From: Promethearchaeota archaeon
GTDB taxonomy: Archaea > Asgardarchaeota > Lokiarchaeia > Sigyniarchaeales > SOKP01
NCBI GenBank assembly: GCA_019057865.1
Contig: JAHLWP010000010.1
Location: 32,001-96,000, forward strand
Direction of reading: 5' to 3'
Length of the DNA: 64,000 nt
In this document: one piece after another, positions 2 to 33,662 of the stretch
Layout: the number at the start of each line of letters is the position of its first letter
Numbering within the stretch: position 1 is the first letter of the stretch
Made by a program: the position numbers and the translations under genes
Notes under the pieces: generated by a model
Databases searched by the model: none
What the model was told of the DNA's origin: nothing
What the model saw: the letters and a program-made list of their open reading frames with translations, nothing else

Positions 2-574
2 TTGGCTACATTCTTCACTTGGATTGGAATTGCATGCGCTGTAGGAGTTTTAGGGATATTATTTTTTCCACCTGATACAGAAATAGAAAAAACGGAAAAT
101 TCGCTTAAAGACTGGTTTAGAAATAAAAATAGTATTAAAATATTAATTCGAATAGGACTTATTGCGATTCCAGTAATTATTGGAATACTTGCTTTAACAC
201 TATCAGATCGTCTTTTTATTGATCCTGATTTCTTGGATGATTATCCTCTAATTACTATAGAACCAATAACAGTAAAGATTGGAGCATGGGAATATCCAAT
301 TGGGAGATTTCTTTTTAATTTTGTGCTCCTACCTTTATTTGTTACTCTTATTCCGTTTATATTCCTCTATTTAGCATGGAAAACTTTTGGAGTACTAAGA
401 AAATCTTATGCTCTAAATGCTATTGGATTTTTTCTTTACTTCCTTGGAAGAATATTACAAGGAGCTCTTGAAGTAGCTAATCTACCCCATTTAGGAGCTA
501 TAATGCCTCCATTGATAATATTATTAGCCCTATTAATAATGGTAATAGCTAATAATTACGAACAACTCAAATAG
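2..574 (+). CDS. Multi-pass membrane protein, 5'-truncated by the window edge
   Basis: ORF open from the window start; several hydrophobic helices. Confidence 0.7.
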   Translation: MATFFTWIGIACAVGVLGILFFPPDTEIEKTENSLKDWFRNKNSIKILIRIGLIAIPVIIGILALTLSDRLFIDPDFLDDYPLITIEPITVKIGAWEYPIGRFLFNFVLLPLFVTLIPFIFLYLAWKTFGVLRKSYALNAIGFFLYFLGRILQGALEVANLPHLGAIMPPLIILLALLIMVIANNYEQLK

Positions 575-795
575 ATAGATTTTAAAACTTATAATTATTG
601 AAGTTCTTTTACTCATTCTAGCCTCAATTTTTTACCAGTATCATAGAATCTATAACTAATTTCTAAAATAGCTTTAAAAAACAATTTTTACTCTTAGTAA
701 AAAAAGAACAAAGTTTTAAAATTGAATCTTTTATAATTAAAATATATTCAAAATTATAAAATAAAGAATAAACATATTTTTAGAAGGTTTTTTTA

Positions 796-3864: not shown

Positions 3865-5316
3865 TTAATCATCATAACTAAATTTTGGTTCAGATATAGA
3901 ATTAATTTTCTCATTTACTATATTCTCATTATAATCATCCTGAAGCTCTTTATAATAGTTTTTTGCTCTTTGTAAATTAACTAAAGCTAACTCAATCTCT
4001 CCTTTTTTTATAGCAATATCTCCTAAAGTTTGAAAAATATCTGCGCATTCTTTAAAATATTCTAAAGCTTCAAAAATCTCTAATGCGCTTTCAAAATTTT
4101 TAATTGCTTCTGAATTATTGTCAAGAAAATCTAAATATAATTGAGCTATAGCTGTTTTTAAATCAGCAATCTTAGATTTATCACCATATTTATCATAAAT
4201 TTCAATAGAATAATTATAATATTCAATTGATTTAAGATACTCCTCTTTTAATACATATAATTTTGCAAGATTTTCCAAAATTATCCCTTCTTTAATATCT
4301 TCTGCGATTTCGAAAATTCTAACTGCTTCAAGACTTTTTAATAATAAACTTTCGGCTTCGAAAGTGTTTTTCCTTAAAAGATGTAATTTTCCAAGATAAA
4401 GAAAACATTCCCACTCAAGTTTTGCTTTAATAAAAATTGAACCCTTATCTTCTATTCTATTTATTAAGCCTAATGCATTATTTAAACTTTGAAAGGCTCG
4501 ATCATAATCTTCTCCTAGAATATAGTAAAATTTTCCATATTTAATATGAGTTTGAATCATCCCATAGATATCTTCTCTTTCTTTAAAAAATTTAGAATTT
4601 CTTGATAAAATTTTTTTAATTCTCTCTGCATCCTTTAACATCAAAAGGACTTCAACTAAATTACTGGCTGATTTTATCTCTTCAGTGATTAGATCGTTTT
4701 GCTCTGAAAGATTAAGCGCTTCCTGGTAATATTTATAAGAATGTTCCAAATCGTTAATTAAATAATATATATTTCCTAAATTGTTTAAAGTTTTGATAGC
4801 CTTTTTATATTCATTTATCTCTTTAAGAATTTCTAAAGCTCTATTAAAATGATAAATGGCTTGATCAAAAAATCCAAGATCTTCTTGAATTATCCCAATT
4901 TCATTATAGCAAATAGCCTCATTGAGTAAATCCTTTTCTTCTTTAAAATTTTCTGAAGCCAATTCAAGATTTTTTAGGGCACTAGGCAAATCTCTTTTTT
5001 TATAATATAGACTAGATTTTTCTAATAATAAAGAACCTGGTATAGGATCTCCCATAGCTTCTTTCTCTTTTAATATTTCATTAACTTTCTGAATCTTTCG
5101 CTCAATTTCCTCATCGTTAATAATGATATTGTCATAATATTTATAAGATTCTTCTAGCTCTTCTAAATCAGAACTAGAGTGCAACGGTTCAATATAAGGA
5201 TGTTTTAAACTTCTGCTTAAATCATTTTCGATATTGGTGATTAATGGCTTATTACAATTATGACAATATTTCCAATGATCCTCAATATATTTTTTACAAT
5301 AAGGGCAAGTTCTCAT
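3865..5316 (-). CDS. Zinc-ribbon plus tetratricopeptide repeat protein
   Basis: N-terminal CPYC...CHNC; repeated TPR-like helices (NNLGNIYY, A..YY.EAL). Confidence 0.85.
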   Translation of the reverse strand: MRTCPYCKKYIEDHWKYCHNCNKPLITNIENDLSRSLKHPYIEPLHSSSDLEELEESYKYYDNIIINDEEIERKIQKVNEILKEKEAMGDPIPGSLLLEKSSLYYKKRDLPSALKNLELASENFKEEKDLLNEAICYNEIGIIQEDLGFFDQAIYHFNRALEILKEINEYKKAIKTLNNLGNIYYLINDLEHSYKYYQEALNLSEQNDLITEEIKSASNLVEVLLMLKDAERIKKILSRNSKFFKEREDIYGMIQTHIKYGKFYYILGEDYDRAFQSLNNALGLINRIEDKGSIFIKAKLEWECFLYLGKLHLLRKNTFEAESLLLKSLEAVRIFEIAEDIKEGIILENLAKLYVLKEEYLKSIEYYNYSIEIYDKYGDKSKIADLKTAIAQLYLDFLDNNSEAIKNFESALEIFEALEYFKECADIFQTLGDIAIKKGEIELALVNLQRAKNYYKELQDDYNENIVNEKINSISEPKFSYDD

Positions 5317-30619: not shown

Positions 30620-31114
30620 TTACTTCCCTCCTTCATATTCAGGTTTATTAATCCAGTTTTCATATTCATCTTCTGGAACAAAGAAGAAATCTGTCATTTT
30701 CCCTTCTCTTACTTTGTTAAAAACAGCTCTAACTCTTCTTCCTTTTTTAATCTTAGAAGGAACTAAATTTTCTGAAAAAATTCCTTGAAGTAATGCGGTT
30801 TCTGCTCCATCTAATTTTATAAAGCCTATACTATAAGGTACGGCTTTTATAAATGCAGAAGTTGTATACCATACAATTGTGCTAACTTCTATAGTTCCTG
30901 TTTGGTTCAATTCTACCCATTTAGCAGGAGCAAAACAATCAGAGCAATTGATCCTTGGAGGCATCCATGTCTTTCCACATTTAGTACATTTTGTGCCCAA
31001 TAGTTTTTTATTTTTCATTAATTCTAAAAAGAATTTGGATTGTCCTCCCATTGTGTATTTGTAGTTGATCCTTATTACATCTCTTATTTGATGCTCCTGA
31101 AATTCTTCGCTCAT
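30620..31114 (-). CDS. DUF35 (Zn-ribbon/OB-fold) protein
   Basis: KCTKCG..WMPPRINCSDC; its ATG overlaps the TGA of the spliced thiolase (ATGA, 31111-31114). Confidence 0.9.
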   Translation of the reverse strand: MSEEFQEHQIRDVIRINYKYTMGGQSKFFLELMKNKKLLGTKCTKCGKTWMPPRINCSDCFAPAKWVELNQTGTIEVSTIVWYTTSAFIKAVPYSIGFIKLDGAETALLQGIFSENLVPSKIKKGRRVRAVFNKVREGKMTDFFFVPEDEYENWINKPEYEGGK

Positions 31115-32460
31115 GGTTTTTTCAACCCCTCCTCATTTGTCATTACTATAACCGCAGCATATGCCGCTCCAGGGCCTCCTATTGAGTGAGCAATAGCTCT
31201 GCCATTTTCAATTGTTTTTATTTGATGCTTTCCAGCATCCTCTCTAAGCTGAAGTGCTGCTTCACCTGTAGACATTATCCCGGTAGCACCAACAGCATGA
31301 CCACATCCAATTAATCCACCGCAAGGGCAACATGGTAATTCACCATCTAACCATGGCCCCTCCCCTGGTTTTTCAAAGGATTTTTCAATCCATGGACCAC
31401 CTTCCCCAAAAGGAACAAACCCAAGCTCCTCATAAGAGATGACTTCTTATCCAGAGAATATCGAACTGATATTCATTGTCCTGAGAAGGCATCATGGAGC
31501 TCTGCTAAATCAATTTGTTCCTTTATTTTATTATAGTCTAAGCCTGCCATCTTATACGCGGCTTTTGCAGCAAAAATATTTGAATATAACCTTCCCATAT
31601 CTTCTCTATTTCCTATAAAACAATCGGTATTTGCTGCTGCGACACCAGTAATCCAAATCGGCTTTTCAATTTTTAATTCTCTTACTTTTTCTTCACTTGC
31701 GAGAATTAATGCTGCTGATGCTTCTGAATATAAACAACAATCAAGCATCTTGAAGGGATGACAAATTATCCTTGAGTATAGGACATCATCTAAGGAAATT
31801 TTCATAGGGGATTGTGCTTTTGGATTGAGCATAGCATTCCCATGGTTTTTTACGCTAACTTTAGCCAATTTTAACTAATTGTTAAGATTTAAAGCCATTT
31901 GTTCTTCGGTAGGATTACCGAATTCTTCATAATGGGCGTTTACCATAGAAACGTACGAGGTTGCTGCCATCATTCCCATAGGATATTTACGAAATATGTA
32001 GAACTTACACCATTTTTTCGTAAGTCATATCAGTAGAATAGGCGATGGCATTCAAAACTTCAGGTGTCGTAGTTCCTGTTTGTTCGTCATAGCAATCATT
32101 GCATTTTTCGACTCCTATACATAAACATAAGTCAGATAAGCCAGAAGCTACTTCTGCAAAAGCCATTCGGACAGTATATCCTCCTGTTGCTCCTCCTGTT
32201 GCTATACGAGTACCAGGTTTATTATTCATCCCTATATAGGAATTACAAAAAATATCTGGCATAAATTGTCTTTCAAATAGCTCATTATAGATTCCATATA
32301 CCGTAGATTGTAAATCCTTATGAGTTATTTCAGCACCGTTATTATTTGCGTCCTCAAGTGCTAATTTTGTTGCATCATATGCTAATTCAAAATATGTCTT
32401 ATCTAAATACTGGGCTTTAAAAGGAGTAATTCCTATACCTATAATCGCAACTTTCTTCAC
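31111..32460 (-). CDS. Thiolase superfamily protein, predicted four-exon gene (join 32460-32017, 31985-31891, 31860-31478, 31448-31111; 1260 nt, 419 aa)
   Basis: Removing three BHB-flanked inserts gives one ORF: ...DMTYE|YPMGMMAATSYVSMVNAHYEEFGNPTEEQMAL|VSVKNHG...ELHDAFSGQ|EVISYEELG...GGLIGCGHAVGATG...AHSIGG...KKP*. No other stops or frameshifts. Confidence 0.85.
31449..31477 (-). other. Putative BHB mRNA intron 3 (29 nt, phase 1)
   Basis: Outer helix CUUCU/AGAAG, central helix CAGG/CUGG (one A.G mismatch), bulges AC^A and AU^A, inner stem GAAUAUC/GAUAUUC; product GGA C|AA GAA. Confidence 0.78.
31861..31890 (-). other. Putative BHB mRNA intron 2 (30 nt, phase 2)
   Basis: Outer helix AAU/GUU, central helix GGCU/GGCU (two G-C, two G.U), bulges UU^A and AA^A, inner stem AAUCUUAAC/GUUAAAAUU (8 of 9 paired); product AUG GCU UU|A GUU. 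Confidence 0.85.
31986..32016 (-). other. Putative BHB mRNA intron 1 (31 nt, phase 0)
   Basis: Central helix UACG/CGUA, bulges AA^A and AA^U, inner hairpin; cutting after the second bulge nucleotide gives UAC GAA|UAU CCU. Confidence 0.8.
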
Positions 32461-32627
32461 ATTTTTTCACATTTTATATTATTTTATGTTTTTTGATATT
32501 AGATATATTTATTATATATTCTTTTCCAATTTTTTTTAGAGAGTAAATCGTTAAAAGTTTAAATCTTACATTATTTAATTCTATAATTGTATTATAATTA
32601 ACAGTTTGTTAACAAAAGTGAAAAAAA

Positions 32628-33662
32628 TTGGTTTTAGAGACAAATATAACTGAAATGTTAGGAATTAAGCATCCAATTGTTGGAGCACCTATGGGACCTT
32701 TTTATACAACTGAATTAACGGTAGCAGTATCTGAAGCGGGAGGATTAGGAGTTTTAAGTCATACTAATTTATTCGGTAAAAGCAGTACTGAAGAAATGAA
32801 GAAAAATATGGAATATGTTATTGAACATACAGATAAACCTTTTGGTTTTAATATTAGAACAGCAAGGATGCAAATGGATGCTATAAAACTTTGTAGAGAA
32901 ATACCCAAGTTCATTATGAGCAAACCAAAATTAAGGGAACAGGTAAGATATGCAATAACTTCTGCTGGTTCCGCTCGTATGTTGCTAAGAAGTAAAAATT
33001 ACCAGAAATTAAAAGAAGTGTCTGATATCAGAAATTTCCATGTAGCTCCAGCATTTTGGTTAGCTAGAAAATGCGTAGAGGCAGGAGTTGATGGGCTTGT
33101 AGTAACTGGATTTGAAGGGGGTGGTCATCAATCATATGAGAAAACATCTACCTTAGTTTTGATTCAACAGGTAAAACAAGCATTTCCTGATATTCCCATA
33201 ATTGCATGTGGAGGATTTGCAACGGGTGTAGGGCTTGCTGGAGCATTAGCAATGGGAGCAGGAGCGATAGCTATGGGAACTAGATTCATTGCATCAAAAG
33301 ATAGTGAATTTCATGAAAATTATAAACAAATTGTAGCTCCTGCGAAAGCTCCTGATACAACAGTAGTCACAGGATTTATAGCTCCAATAAGATTATGGAA
33401 AAATACATACACATCCCATCATGATACTGTGAAAAATAAAAATGAGAAACTCGTAAAGGAGAGTGAAATGTTAATACAAGATTTGCTTATTGATCAAAAG
33501 AATTATGAAATGGTATATGAAGGGTATATAGAAAATAGTGCTGTTCCTTTAGGTCAAAGTTGTGGTATAATCAATAGTATCGATAATGTAAAAGATATTA
33601 TTGAAAATATAGTAAAAGATGCAGAAATTTACCTTAAAAATTCAAATAACTTTATAAAATAA
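32628..33662 (+). CDS. Nitronate monooxygenase / FabK-like flavin oxidoreductase
   Basis: PIVGAPMG, AVSEAGGLG, G.EGGGH, ACGGF, MGTRF. Confidence 0.88.
   Translation: MVLETNITEMLGIKHPIVGAPMGPFYTTELTVAVSEAGGLGVLSHTNLFGKSSTEEMKKNMEYVIEHTDKPFGFNIRTARMQMDAIKLCREIPKFIMSKPKLREQVRYAITSAGSARMLLRSKNYQKLKEVSDIRNFHVAPAFWLARKCVEAGVDGLVVTGFEGGGHQSYEKTSTLVLIQQVKQAFPDIPIIACGGFATGVGLAGALAMGAGAIAMGTRFIASKDSEFHENYKQIVAPAKAPDTTVVTGFIAPIRLWKNTYTSHHDTVKNKNEKLVKESEMLIQDLLIDQKNYEMVYEGYIENSAVPLGQSCGIINSIDNVKDIIENIVKDAEIYLKNSNNFIK

What the first reader, a model, noticed from the sequence alone, without database searches (positions are those of the whole stretch)
31111..32460. Protein-coding gene with three tiny bulge-helix-bulge introns: a predicted four-exon mRNA in an Asgard-like archaeon
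Seen: the thiolase is broken only by three insertions of 31, 30 and 29 nt. Each forms an internal hairpin and, with its exon flanks, a 4-bp central helix between two 3-nt bulges on opposite strands. Applying the EndA rule (cut after the second nucleotide of each bulge) independently at all three sites gives exons of 444+95+383+338 = 1260 nt, one 419-aa ORF. Motif spacing then matches the intact paralog in this window (DMTYEYPMG vs DKDWETPLG; HDAFSGQEVISYEELG vs HDAFTISDIQTYEDIG), and the stop overlaps the DUF35 start (ATGA). There are no other lesions, unlike the real pseudogenes here, which carry point stops and 1-nt indels. Known: BHB motifs are cut by the archaeal tRNA splicing endonuclease and ligated by RtcB; the best-characterised archaeal mRNA case is the single cbf5 intron of some crenarchaea. 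Inferred: a metabolic gene with several BHB introns implies wider mRNA splicing in this lineage, relevant to intron origins and likely hidden as 'pseudogenes' in annotations.
Basis: partly seen in the sequence, partly recalled or inferred. Interest (0 to 1): 0.97.

Follow-up and report, generated by a model that had tools for sequence, protein, structure and literature searches.

The report
Three tRNA-type introns in thiolase gene
A thiolase gene of an Asgard-type archaeon is interrupted by three ~30-base inserts with the RNA shape that the tRNA-splicing enzyme cuts; relatives keep them while the protein stays under strong selection, so they are very probably spliced mRNA introns, which papers I could search document only for the cbf5 gene.

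Summary
The minus-strand thiolase gene (32460..31111) carries inserts of 31, 30 and 29 nt. About 90 intact orthologues lack them, and removing them gives a gapless 419-aa match.

With junctions fixed by homology alone, I1 and I2 sit in the exact bulge-helix-bulge (BHB) register. I3 has a 3-bp central helix with one A.G mismatch.

A pseudogene is excluded.
- A 92.6%-identical environmental allele has all three inserts. Its exons show dS 0.33 and dN/dS 0.085, and I2 plus I3 show no change in 59 nt.
- Orthologues from over 15 assemblies carry 28-35 nt inserts at about eight recurrent positions.
- 32 of 40 distinct inserts have a perfect 4-bp helix at a homology-allowed register (2.95 expected by chance), with compensatory changes.
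- Homologous inserts differ in length by one base.
- At least 25 of 28 insert-bearing alleles give intact ORFs once the inserts are removed.

The genome encodes two EndA paralogues and RtcB. A motif-free comparison with a congener shows that frame-breaking indels in this genome are only about 29-32 nt.

No RNA data exist for this organism, so splicing itself is inferred. This scan noted the same class before on other pieces of this genome and in other genomes. I found no paper describing it in Asgard archaea.

The parts
32017..32460 (-). Exon 1 (444 nt, GTG start at 32460; Thiolase_N region)
   Evidence: It matches residues 1-148 of the orthologues without gaps.
31986..32016 (-). Intron I1 (31 nt). 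H = UACG (exon) / CGUA (intron 3' end). Bulges AA|A and AA|U. h' = AAAU/AUUU, followed by the hairpin GUGUA-AGUUC-UACAU.
   Evidence: Absent from 19 orthologues. BHB score (4,5,1). Homologous 32-nt introns lie at the same site in L188 and L174, with an A-U to G-C covariation in h'. Present, with 4 changes, in L228.
31891..31985 (-). Exon 2 (95 nt)
31861..31890 (-). Intron I2 (30 nt, carries an in-frame TAG). H = GGCU/GGCU (two G.U pairs). Bulges UU|A and AA|A. h' = AAU/AUU plus the hairpin UUAAC-AAUUA-GUUAA.
   Evidence: score 4,3,3. Eight other distinct alleles carry a 29-30 nt intron at the same site, with two covarying h' pairs and 9/9 pairing. Identical in L228.
31478..31860 (-). Exon 3 (383 nt)
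   Evidence: 85-91% identity to congeneric orthologues.
31449..31477 (-). Intron I3 (29 nt; shifts the frame and puts a TGA in frame). H = CAGG/CUGG, 3 pairs plus an A.G mismatch. Bulges AC|A and AU|A. Outer exon-exon helix CUUCU/AGAAG, extended by GAUG/CAUC. Hairpin GAAUAUC-AGUUC-GAUAUUC.
   Evidence: score 3,1,5. Relatives carry a 30-nt intron at the same site with a perfect CUGG/CCAG helix. Identical in L228.
31111..31448 (-). Exon 4 (338 nt including the TGA stop at 31113..31111; Thiolase_C_1 region)
   Evidence: (Pfam E = 5e-15).
30620..31114 (-). Downstream translationally coupled DUF35/ChsH2-type gene (zinc ribbon plus OB fold), the usual partner of archaeal thiolases. Its ATG overlaps the thiolase stop (ATGA).
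   Evidence: The same gene order is seen in environmental loci.

Best explanation
The thiolase gene is a working four-exon gene. Its transcript carries three tRNA-type (bulge-helix-bulge) micro-introns.

Proposed mechanism. At each junction the last exon bases pair with the 3' end of the intron to form a 4-bp helix (3 bp plus A.G in I3). A 3-nt bulge lies on each strand beside this helix, and an intron hairpin and an exon-exon helix lie outside it. The host's splicing endonuclease cuts after the second base of each bulge. This enzyme has two paralogues, one with the Tyr/His/Lys catalytic residues and one lacking the His, which fits the broad-specificity (alpha-beta)2 type reported for Asgard archaea. 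RtcB joins the exons. The result is a 1260-nt reading frame for a 419-aa thiolase that is translationally coupled to its DUF35 partner.

Shown here: the inserts and their exact junctions, the BHB geometry, its conservation and covariation in relatives, purifying selection on exons and on introns, and the presence of the enzymes.

Inferred: cleavage and ligation of this RNA in the cell.
For: 1. Homology-only junctions fall in the BHB cutting register for I1 and I2, and in a relaxed form for I3. The chance is 0.0017-0.0019 per register, with 2-3 tied registers each.
2. Allele L228 is 92.6% identical, aligns without gaps and has all three inserts. Its exons show dS 0.33, dN 0.028 and dN/dS 0.085. 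I2 and I3 show 0 changes in 59 nt, although 26% of synonymous sites differ. I1 shows 4 changes in 31 nt.
3. Of 116 orthologous loci, 28 carry 28-35 nt inserts at recurrent CDS positions 378, 381, 441, 444, 457, 539, 917 and 922. GTDB congeners carry them as well.
4. In 37 of 40 distinct inserts the BHB register lies in the homology tie set. In 32 the central helix is a perfect 4 bp (2.95 expected). In 21 the strict criterion of H=4 with h'>=3 is met (0.19 expected).
5. Compensatory pairs occur in h' of I1 and I2. H plus h' pairing is 0.97-1.0, against 0.17-0.54 when the partner strand is slid.
6. Homologous introns differ in length by one base: I1 31 vs 32, I2 30 vs 29, I3 29 vs 30. They are therefore not read as codons.
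7. At least 25 of 28 insert-bearing alleles become intact full-length ORFs after BHB-rule removal. dN/dS is 0.03-0.07 for all pairs.
8. Two EndA paralogues and RtcB are encoded. Asgard EndA is reported as (alpha-beta)2 with the L1 loop (PMC5829648).
9. In a motif-free comparison with 2 Mb of a congener, the frame-breaking indels of this genome are only about 29-32 nt, and 6 of the 9 that could be scored fit strict BHB. Ordinary in-frame indels do not fit, apart from one in acs that may itself be an intron.
Against: - There is no RNA evidence for this gene or organism. No RNA run holds it.
- The BHB conformer is 1.8-5.6 kcal/mol above the predicted minimum-energy fold for all three introns.
- The central helix of I3 has an internal A.G mismatch where relatives have a perfect helix.
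- The outer exon-exon helix of I1 is only 1 bp.
- In L228 the I1 helix has lost one pair.
- The (alpha-beta)2 architecture and broad specificity of this genome's EndA are inferred from motifs and the literature, not tested.
Confidence: 0.82

Rival explanations
1. The gene is a recently inactivated pseudogene. Three hairpin-forming insertions, for example templated repair products, broke it, and the pieces are no longer expressed as one protein.
For: - Gene callers split it into fragments.
- The closest GTDB orthologues lack the inserts.
- I3 has an imperfect helix.
- The 3' end of I3 resembles the upstream exon, UUCUCAGGACAA versus UUCUCUGGAUAA.
Against: - dN/dS is 0.085 between two alleles that both carry all three inserts, at dS 0.33. 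I2 and I3 are themselves unchanged.
- No other lesion occurs in any of at least 25 insert-bearing alleles.
- The same positions recur across lineages whose synonymous sites are saturated.
- The structure is kept through compensatory changes.
Confidence: 0.05
2. The inserts are skipped by the ribosome through programmed translational bypassing, as in phage T4 gene 60 or the 27-55 nt 'byp' elements of Magnusiomyces mitochondria. They are not removed from the RNA.
For: - The inserts are short hairpin-bearing sequences with a stop at or near the 5' junction, and there are several per gene.
- At I2 the GCU codon recurs just before the 3' junction.
Against: - Bypassing needs matching take-off and landing codons. 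I1 has GAA versus AAA, and the I3-position introns of relatives have GGA versus CCAGUC, so neither has them.
- At I2 of the relatives, a GCU-to-GCU hop would give Asn where orthologues have Tyr, Cys or Leu. The BHB cut rebuilds the consensus Tyr codon UA|U.
- What is conserved is the exon-intron 4-bp helix and the bulge register, which bypassing does not require.
Confidence: 0.04
3. The inserts are removed or tolerated by some other route. Candidates are DNA-level excision in part of the population, a different RNA nuclease, or copies of a small mobile element that merely mimics BHB.
For: - Intronless and intron-bearing alleles co-occur in the same sediments.
- Hairpin loops recur between introns at different sites, for example CAAUUAG at positions 539 and 917.
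Against: - The intronless contigs differ in their flanks and match other species' orthologues (joint 31985>32021 with CTCA).
- No insert-free joint is seen at depth 219 in the source run.
- I1, I2 and I3 have no other copy in the genome.
- Half of each motif is exon sequence, so an element cannot carry it along.
Confidence: 0.05
4. The inserts are assembly or sequencing artefacts.
For: The genome is a metagenome-assembled genome of 87 contigs.
Against: - A second assembler's contig from the source run is identical.
- Contigs of three other studies hold the inserts.
- More than 15 independent assemblies carry homologous inserts.
Confidence: 0.01

Closest known systems
BHB intron in the cbf5 (pseudouridine synthase) pre-mRNA of Crenarchaeota (Watanabe 2002; Yoshinari 2006; Yokobori 2009, PMC2738675)
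   Same: - A short intron lies inside an archaeal protein-coding sequence.
- Exon-intron boundaries fold as (relaxed) bulge-helix-bulge.
- The host has a heteromeric EndA.
- Gain and loss are lineage-specific.
- Gene callers mis-predict the gene.
   Different: - The gene here is a metabolic enzyme (thiolase), not cbf5.
- There are three introns in one gene, and up to four in relatives, not one.
- About eight intron positions are used across orthologues, with turnover and a possible 5-nt slide.
- The host is Asgard-type.
- Splicing of cbf5 was shown by RT-PCR and in vitro cleavage. Here it is inferred.
Archaeal tRNA introns, including the many non-canonical ones of Asgard tRNA genes (bioRxiv 10.64898/2026.10.13.758758; PMC5829648)
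   Same: - The motif geometry is the same: H 4 bp, 3-nt bulges 3' of each H strand, cut after the second bulge base.
- The size range is the same.
- The predicted enzymes are the same.
- This genome's tRNA genes are heavily interrupted: ARAGORN finds only 18, of which 12 have introns.
   Different: - The host RNA is an mRNA with no tRNA body to help recognition.
- The exon half of the motif is constrained by codons.
- The introns carry stops or shift the frame, so splicing is needed for translation.
Translational bypass elements (T4 gene 60; mitochondrial 'byps' of Magnusiomyces)
   Same: They are short (27-55 nt) hairpin-bearing inserts in coding sequence, with several per gene.
   Different: - I1 and I3 have no matching take-off and landing codons.
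- The conserved feature here is exon-intron base pairing in the BHB register.
IRE1/RtcB-dependent HAC1/XBP1 mRNA splicing in eukaryotes
   Same: It is protein-enzyme, non-spliceosomal splicing of an mRNA, with stem-loop splice sites and RtcB-type ligation (in metazoa). The 26-nt XBP1 intron is of similar size.
   Different: The endonuclease (IRE1) and the motif differ. It is a single regulatory intron, not multiple constitutive-looking ones.

Membership tests
Archaeal BHB (EndA-type) intron | A 4-bp central helix with a 3-nt bulge on each strand, each bulge lying 3' of its helix strand | tested here: met
   I1 has UACG/CGUA with bulges AAA and AAU. I2 has GGCU/GGCU (two G.U pairs) with bulges UUA and AAA. 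The chance is 0.0017 per register.
Archaeal BHB (EndA-type) intron | The same feature, tested for intron I3 | tested here: inconclusive
   CAGG/CUGG gives 3 pairs plus an internal A.G mismatch. The bulges ACA and AUA are in register, and both flanking helices are strong. Relatives have a perfect CUGG/CCAG helix at the same site. This is a relaxed motif, of the kind (alpha-beta)2 enzymes are reported to accept (PMC5829648).
Archaeal BHB (EndA-type) intron | Cutting after the second bulge base on both strands yields the functional, collinear product | tested here: met
   The cuts give a 1260-nt ORF whose 419-aa product aligns without gaps to 19 orthologues. The BHB register lies inside the homology tie set in 37 of 40 related introns.
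Archaeal BHB (EndA-type) intron | The structure is kept in evolution through covariation | tested here: met
   Compensatory pairs occur in h' of I1 and I2. Pairing is 0.97-1.0, against 0.17-0.54 in slid controls. The registers were anchored on exon homology, but many of the rows are related to each other.
Archaeal BHB (EndA-type) intron | The host encodes the splicing endonuclease and the RtcB ligase | tested here: met
   PF01974 hits at 104.6 and 70.5 bits on contigs C71 and C69. RtcB scores 561 bits on C75. One paralogue has the Tyr/His/Lys residues and the other lacks the His. The heterotetramer is inferred.
Archaeal BHB (EndA-type) intron | The intron is excised from the RNA (spliced junction or circular intron seen; EndA cleavage in vitro) | not testable with these tools
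   No RNA run holds this organism. Only DNA contigs could be laid.
Pseudogene | Relaxed selection and accumulation of further lesions | tested here: not met
   dN/dS is 0.085 between two three-intron alleles and 0.03-0.07 elsewhere. The spliced ORF is intact in at least 25 of 28 alleles.
Translational bypass element | Identical take-off and landing codons flanking the skipped segment | tested here: not met
   This fails for I1 and for the I3-position introns. At I2 of the relatives it would give a non-consensus residue.
Repeated miniature mobile element | Multiple near-identical copies in the genome | tested here: not met
   blastn-short of I1-I3 against the 4.26-Mb genome finds only themselves and chance 11-19 nt matches.

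The most novel reading that the evidence does not exclude
This lineage of Asgard archaea runs a genome-wide, evolutionarily dynamic mRNA-intron system based on the tRNA-splicing endonuclease. Genes carry up to four or five micro-introns. Introns are gained, lost and possibly slide by a few bases between close relatives. Intron sequences are held under selection. Splicing, or retention, could therefore act as a layer of gene control in the closest prokaryotic relatives of eukaryotes.
Probability: 0.55. Interest if true: 0.92.

Novelty: new variant of a known kind. Interest (0 to 1): 0.85.

Why it matters
In the papers I could search, endonuclease-type splicing inside an archaeal coding sequence is documented only for cbf5, one intron per gene (PMC2738675). 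A Haloferax 5' UTR intron is also reported there.

A four-exon metabolic gene is a different picture. Its intron positions are shared, lost and renewed across dozens of environmental lineages, in the archaea nearest to eukaryotes.
- Interrupted protein genes and obligatory mRNA splicing would not be confined to eukaryotes and rare oddities.
- It gives a concrete system for asking how introns arise at new sites, because half of each motif is exon sequence.
- Many 'pseudogenes' and gene fragments in Asgard annotations may be intact genes. That would affect metabolic reconstructions.

Tried and rejected
- A structure-plus-ORF scan of the whole genome, without homology, gave 4965 hits against 4776-4960 in controls. 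Ordinary gene boundaries swamp it, so I abandoned it for the comparison with a congener. The first version of that script timed out.
- A DNA-level re-alignment of the census events, taking the best of 17 registers, is too permissive in 29% GC sequence and picks up spurious gaps in ORF flanks. It is not used as evidence.
- The first version of the register test compared windows of unequal length. It was corrected.
- No RNA holder was listed for the stretch. This says nothing on expression.
- Read laying does not return contig letters, so the ~90%-identical contigs of run X6 that span the inserts could not be used for covariation.
- Strict alternative registers for I3 give introns of the wrong length. 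CAGG/UCUG gives 28 nt and UCAG/CUGG gives 30 nt. Both put the product out of frame, so I rejected them.
- A Profilin Pfam search found nothing here or in the control genomes and is uninformative.
- L139, L154 and L155 did not give intact ORFs with my automatic registers. L139 has an 83-nt deletion, L154 has two adjacent inserts, and the L155 register is uncertain. I did not resolve them.
- Six literature searches found no paper on BHB introns in Asgard protein-coding genes. The library lacks most subscription journals.
Full report
**What is there.** The feature lies on the minus strand. Stop-to-stop frames split a thiolase-like gene into four pieces. Their Pfam matches are Thiolase_N for piece 1 and Thiolase_C_1 for pieces 3 and 4. 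The next gene is a DUF35/ChsH2-type zinc-ribbon/OB protein whose ATG overlaps the thiolase stop. Removing 32016..31986 (31 nt), 31890..31861 (30 nt, in-frame TAG) and 31477..31449 (29 nt) joins exons of 444, 95, 383 and 338 nt. The result is a 1260-nt frame of 419 codons.

**Host.** The window is contig C7 of a 4.26-Mb genome in 87 contigs with 29% GC. It has a 444-bit eukaryote-type actin hit, EndA and RtcB. 'Asgard-like' is reasonable.

**Are the inserts real and specific?**
- Orthologues in 19 congeneric genomes have open frames of 412-435 aa. They align to the spliced product over 416-419 residues without a gap, at 88-91% identity.
- A nucleotide alignment shows exactly three blocks, of 31, 30 and 29 nt, present only in this genome.
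- No species representative of the genus shares all three.
- A Logan contig of the probable source run covers 31105-32700 with no difference.
- Contigs of three other studies carry I1 (X3), I2 and I3 (X10), or all three at about 90% identity (X6).
- Intronless contigs in the same samples have divergent flanks that match other species' orthologues.
- An artefact is excluded.

**Geometry.** From the canonical 37/38 tRNA intron one derives the order on each strand: 5'-helix H (4 nt), bulge (3 nt)-3', with the cut after the second bulge base.
- I fixed the junctions by protein homology alone, which left 2-3 tied registers per intron.
- I1 gives H = UACG/CGUA, bulges AAA and AAU, and h' of 4-5 bp.
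- I2 gives H = GGCU/GGCU (two G.U pairs), h' of 3 bp plus a 5-bp hairpin, and h of 3 bp.
- I3 gives H = CAGG/CUGG with an internal A.G mismatch, a 5+4 bp outer helix and a 7-bp hairpin.
- In this genome the background frequency of 'H = 4 and h' >= 3' is 0.0017 per register. That of 'H >= 3 and h >= 5' is 0.0019.
- The BHB conformers are 4.6, 1.8 and 5.6 kcal/mol above the predicted minimum-energy folds of I1, I2 and I3. The enzyme would have to capture them.

**Comparative evidence, which decides the case.**
- A search with the exon-3 frame found gene fragments of 113-160 aa in other assemblies.
- Their contigs and 80 metagenome loci gave, together with the genus loci, 116 orthologous loci. 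Of these, 28 carry 28-35 nt inserts.
- The inserts fall at recurrent CDS positions: 378, 381, 441, 444 (= I1), 457, 539 (= I2), 917 and 922 (= I3).
- L188 has introns at the same three sites as the window (32, 29 and 30 nt). L174 has them at 444 and 539. L138 and L204 have four introns each.
- GTDB congeners G002, G025, G057 and G076 also have introns in a copy of this gene.
- In a register test anchored on homology, the BHB register lies in the tie set for 37 of 40 distinct introns. 32 have a perfect 4-bp H (2.95 expected) and 21 meet the strict criterion (0.19 expected). These rows are related to one another, but seven separate positions satisfy the rule.
- Pairs covary. At I2, h'1 switches A-U to C-G and h'3 switches U-A to C-G, with 9/9 paired. 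At I1, h'2 switches A-U to G-C.
- H plus h' pairing is 0.97-1.0, against 0.17-0.54 when the 3' partner is slid by 1-3 nt.
- Homologous introns differ in length by one base, so their effect on the frame differs between alleles, yet the exons stay collinear. They cannot be translated.
- After removal by the BHB rule, at least 25 of 28 alleles give intact full-length frames.

**Selection.**
- Pairwise dN/dS is 0.03-0.07 for all pairs, whether intron-bearing or not.
- The sharpest test is L228, an ENA contig that is 92.6% identical over 838 nt without gaps and carries all three introns.
- Between L228 and the window, the exons show dS 0.33, dN 0.028 and dN/dS 0.085. I2 and I3 have no change in 59 nt, where 26% of synonymous sites differ. 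I1 has 4 changes in 31 nt.
- The three-intron gene, and two of its introns as such, have therefore been under purifying selection. This removes the pseudogene reading for this allele.

**Genome context.**
- The genome has two EndA paralogues. One carries the catalytic Tyr/His/Lys and the other lacks the His. RtcB is present too.
- Asgard EndA is reported as (alpha-beta)2 with the L1 loop that gives broad specificity (PMC5829648).
- ARAGORN recognises only 18 tRNA genes, 12 of them with introns, in a 99.7%-complete genome. This fits the heavily interrupted Asgard tRNA genes described in bioRxiv 10.64898/2026.10.13.758758.
- I compared 2 Mb of the one-contig congener G006 with this genome without using any motif.
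- In-frame indels decay with size: 56 events of 6 nt, 41 of 9 nt, 22 of 12 nt, down to 3 of 27 nt. A second peak then appears: 8 of 30 nt, 4 of 31, 3 of 32 and 4 of 33.
- Among the sizes under 40 nt, the only frame-breaking events are of 31 and 32 nt, plus I3 at 29 nt, which the aligner reported as 27 nt in frame. Two larger events, of 44 and 65 nt, I did not examine.
- Among the frame-breaking or stop-bearing inserts, 6 of the 9 that could be scored fit strict BHB at a homology-tied register. Ordinary in-frame indels do not, apart from one in-frame insert in acs that may itself be an intron.
- One gene on contig C82, noted earlier in this scan as acs, has five such inserts.
- I1-I3 have no other copy in the genome. 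They are not a repeated element.

**Rivals.**
- Translational bypassing is the only known alternative that fits short hairpin inserts occurring in series. It needs matching take-off and landing codons. I1 and the I3-site introns lack them. At I2 of the relatives it would give Asn, where the BHB cut rebuilds the consensus Tyr codon.
- DNA-level excision has no support in the contigs.

**Known and new.**
- In the papers I could search, cbf5 is the only archaeal protein-coding gene with demonstrated endonuclease splicing of its coding sequence. The authors noted that others were only predicted (PMC2738675).
- Six searches of the held library gave no paper on such introns in Asgard protein genes.
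- This scan has noted the same class on other pieces of this genome (cooS, leuS, acs, rnhB and others) and in other genomes. Some of those notes report spliced RNA contigs. They are unchecked AI notes, and I used them only as leads. I saw the acs case independently in my census.

**Verdict.** It remains unproven at the RNA level.

Noticed in passing
window 31449-31477 (I3) versus L205, L181, L229 and L140 (intron at CDS position 917): The hairpin of I3 (GAAUAUC-AGUUC-GAUAUUC) matches the intron that lies 5 nt upstream in other lineages (GAAUAUC-AAUUA-GAUAUUU), by my hand count at 19 of 23 positions. It does not match the intron that relatives carry at the same site, 922. The 3' end of I3 also repeats the upstream exon (UUCUCAGGACAA versus UUCUCUGGAUAA). 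This may be a 5-nt intron slide.
   Followed up: partly
G000 contig C82, about 100-600 (minus strand), outside the window: One gene carries five inserts of 30, 30, 30, 33 and 32 nt relative to its G006 orthologue. Three of them are in frame without a stop. Another 30-nt stop-bearing BHB insert lies at C82:40903.
   Followed up: partly
G000 contigs C56:2605 and C75:2685: Two introns in unrelated genes share the core AAGGUUUCCU in their hairpins. Likewise CAAUUAG recurs in the loops of thiolase introns at positions 539 and 917. This could mean common descent or a preferred loop.
   Followed up: no
whole genome G000: ARAGORN finds only 18 tRNA genes in a 99.7%-complete genome, 12 of them with introns. 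Two of these have implausible 'introns' of 876 and 1582 nt. Most tRNA genes are probably too interrupted to be recognised.
   Followed up: no
L139 (JGI 3300040951) and L147, L153: A few environmental orthologues have other differences: an 83-nt deletion in L139, a 45-nt deletion in L147 and a 1-nt deletion in L153. They may be real decay or assembly errors.
   Followed up: no
G025 (three copies), G057 contig C175 (two tandem copies), G001, G018, G019: Several congeners hold two or three copies of this thiolase. In G025 and G057 one copy is intronless and another carries an intron.
   Followed up: partly
L228 versus window, intron I1: In the 92.6%-identical allele, the central helix of I1 has lost one pair (CGUA to AGUA) and its inner hairpin has changed, while I2 and I3 are untouched. 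I1 may be under weaker constraint or on its way out.
   Followed up: partly
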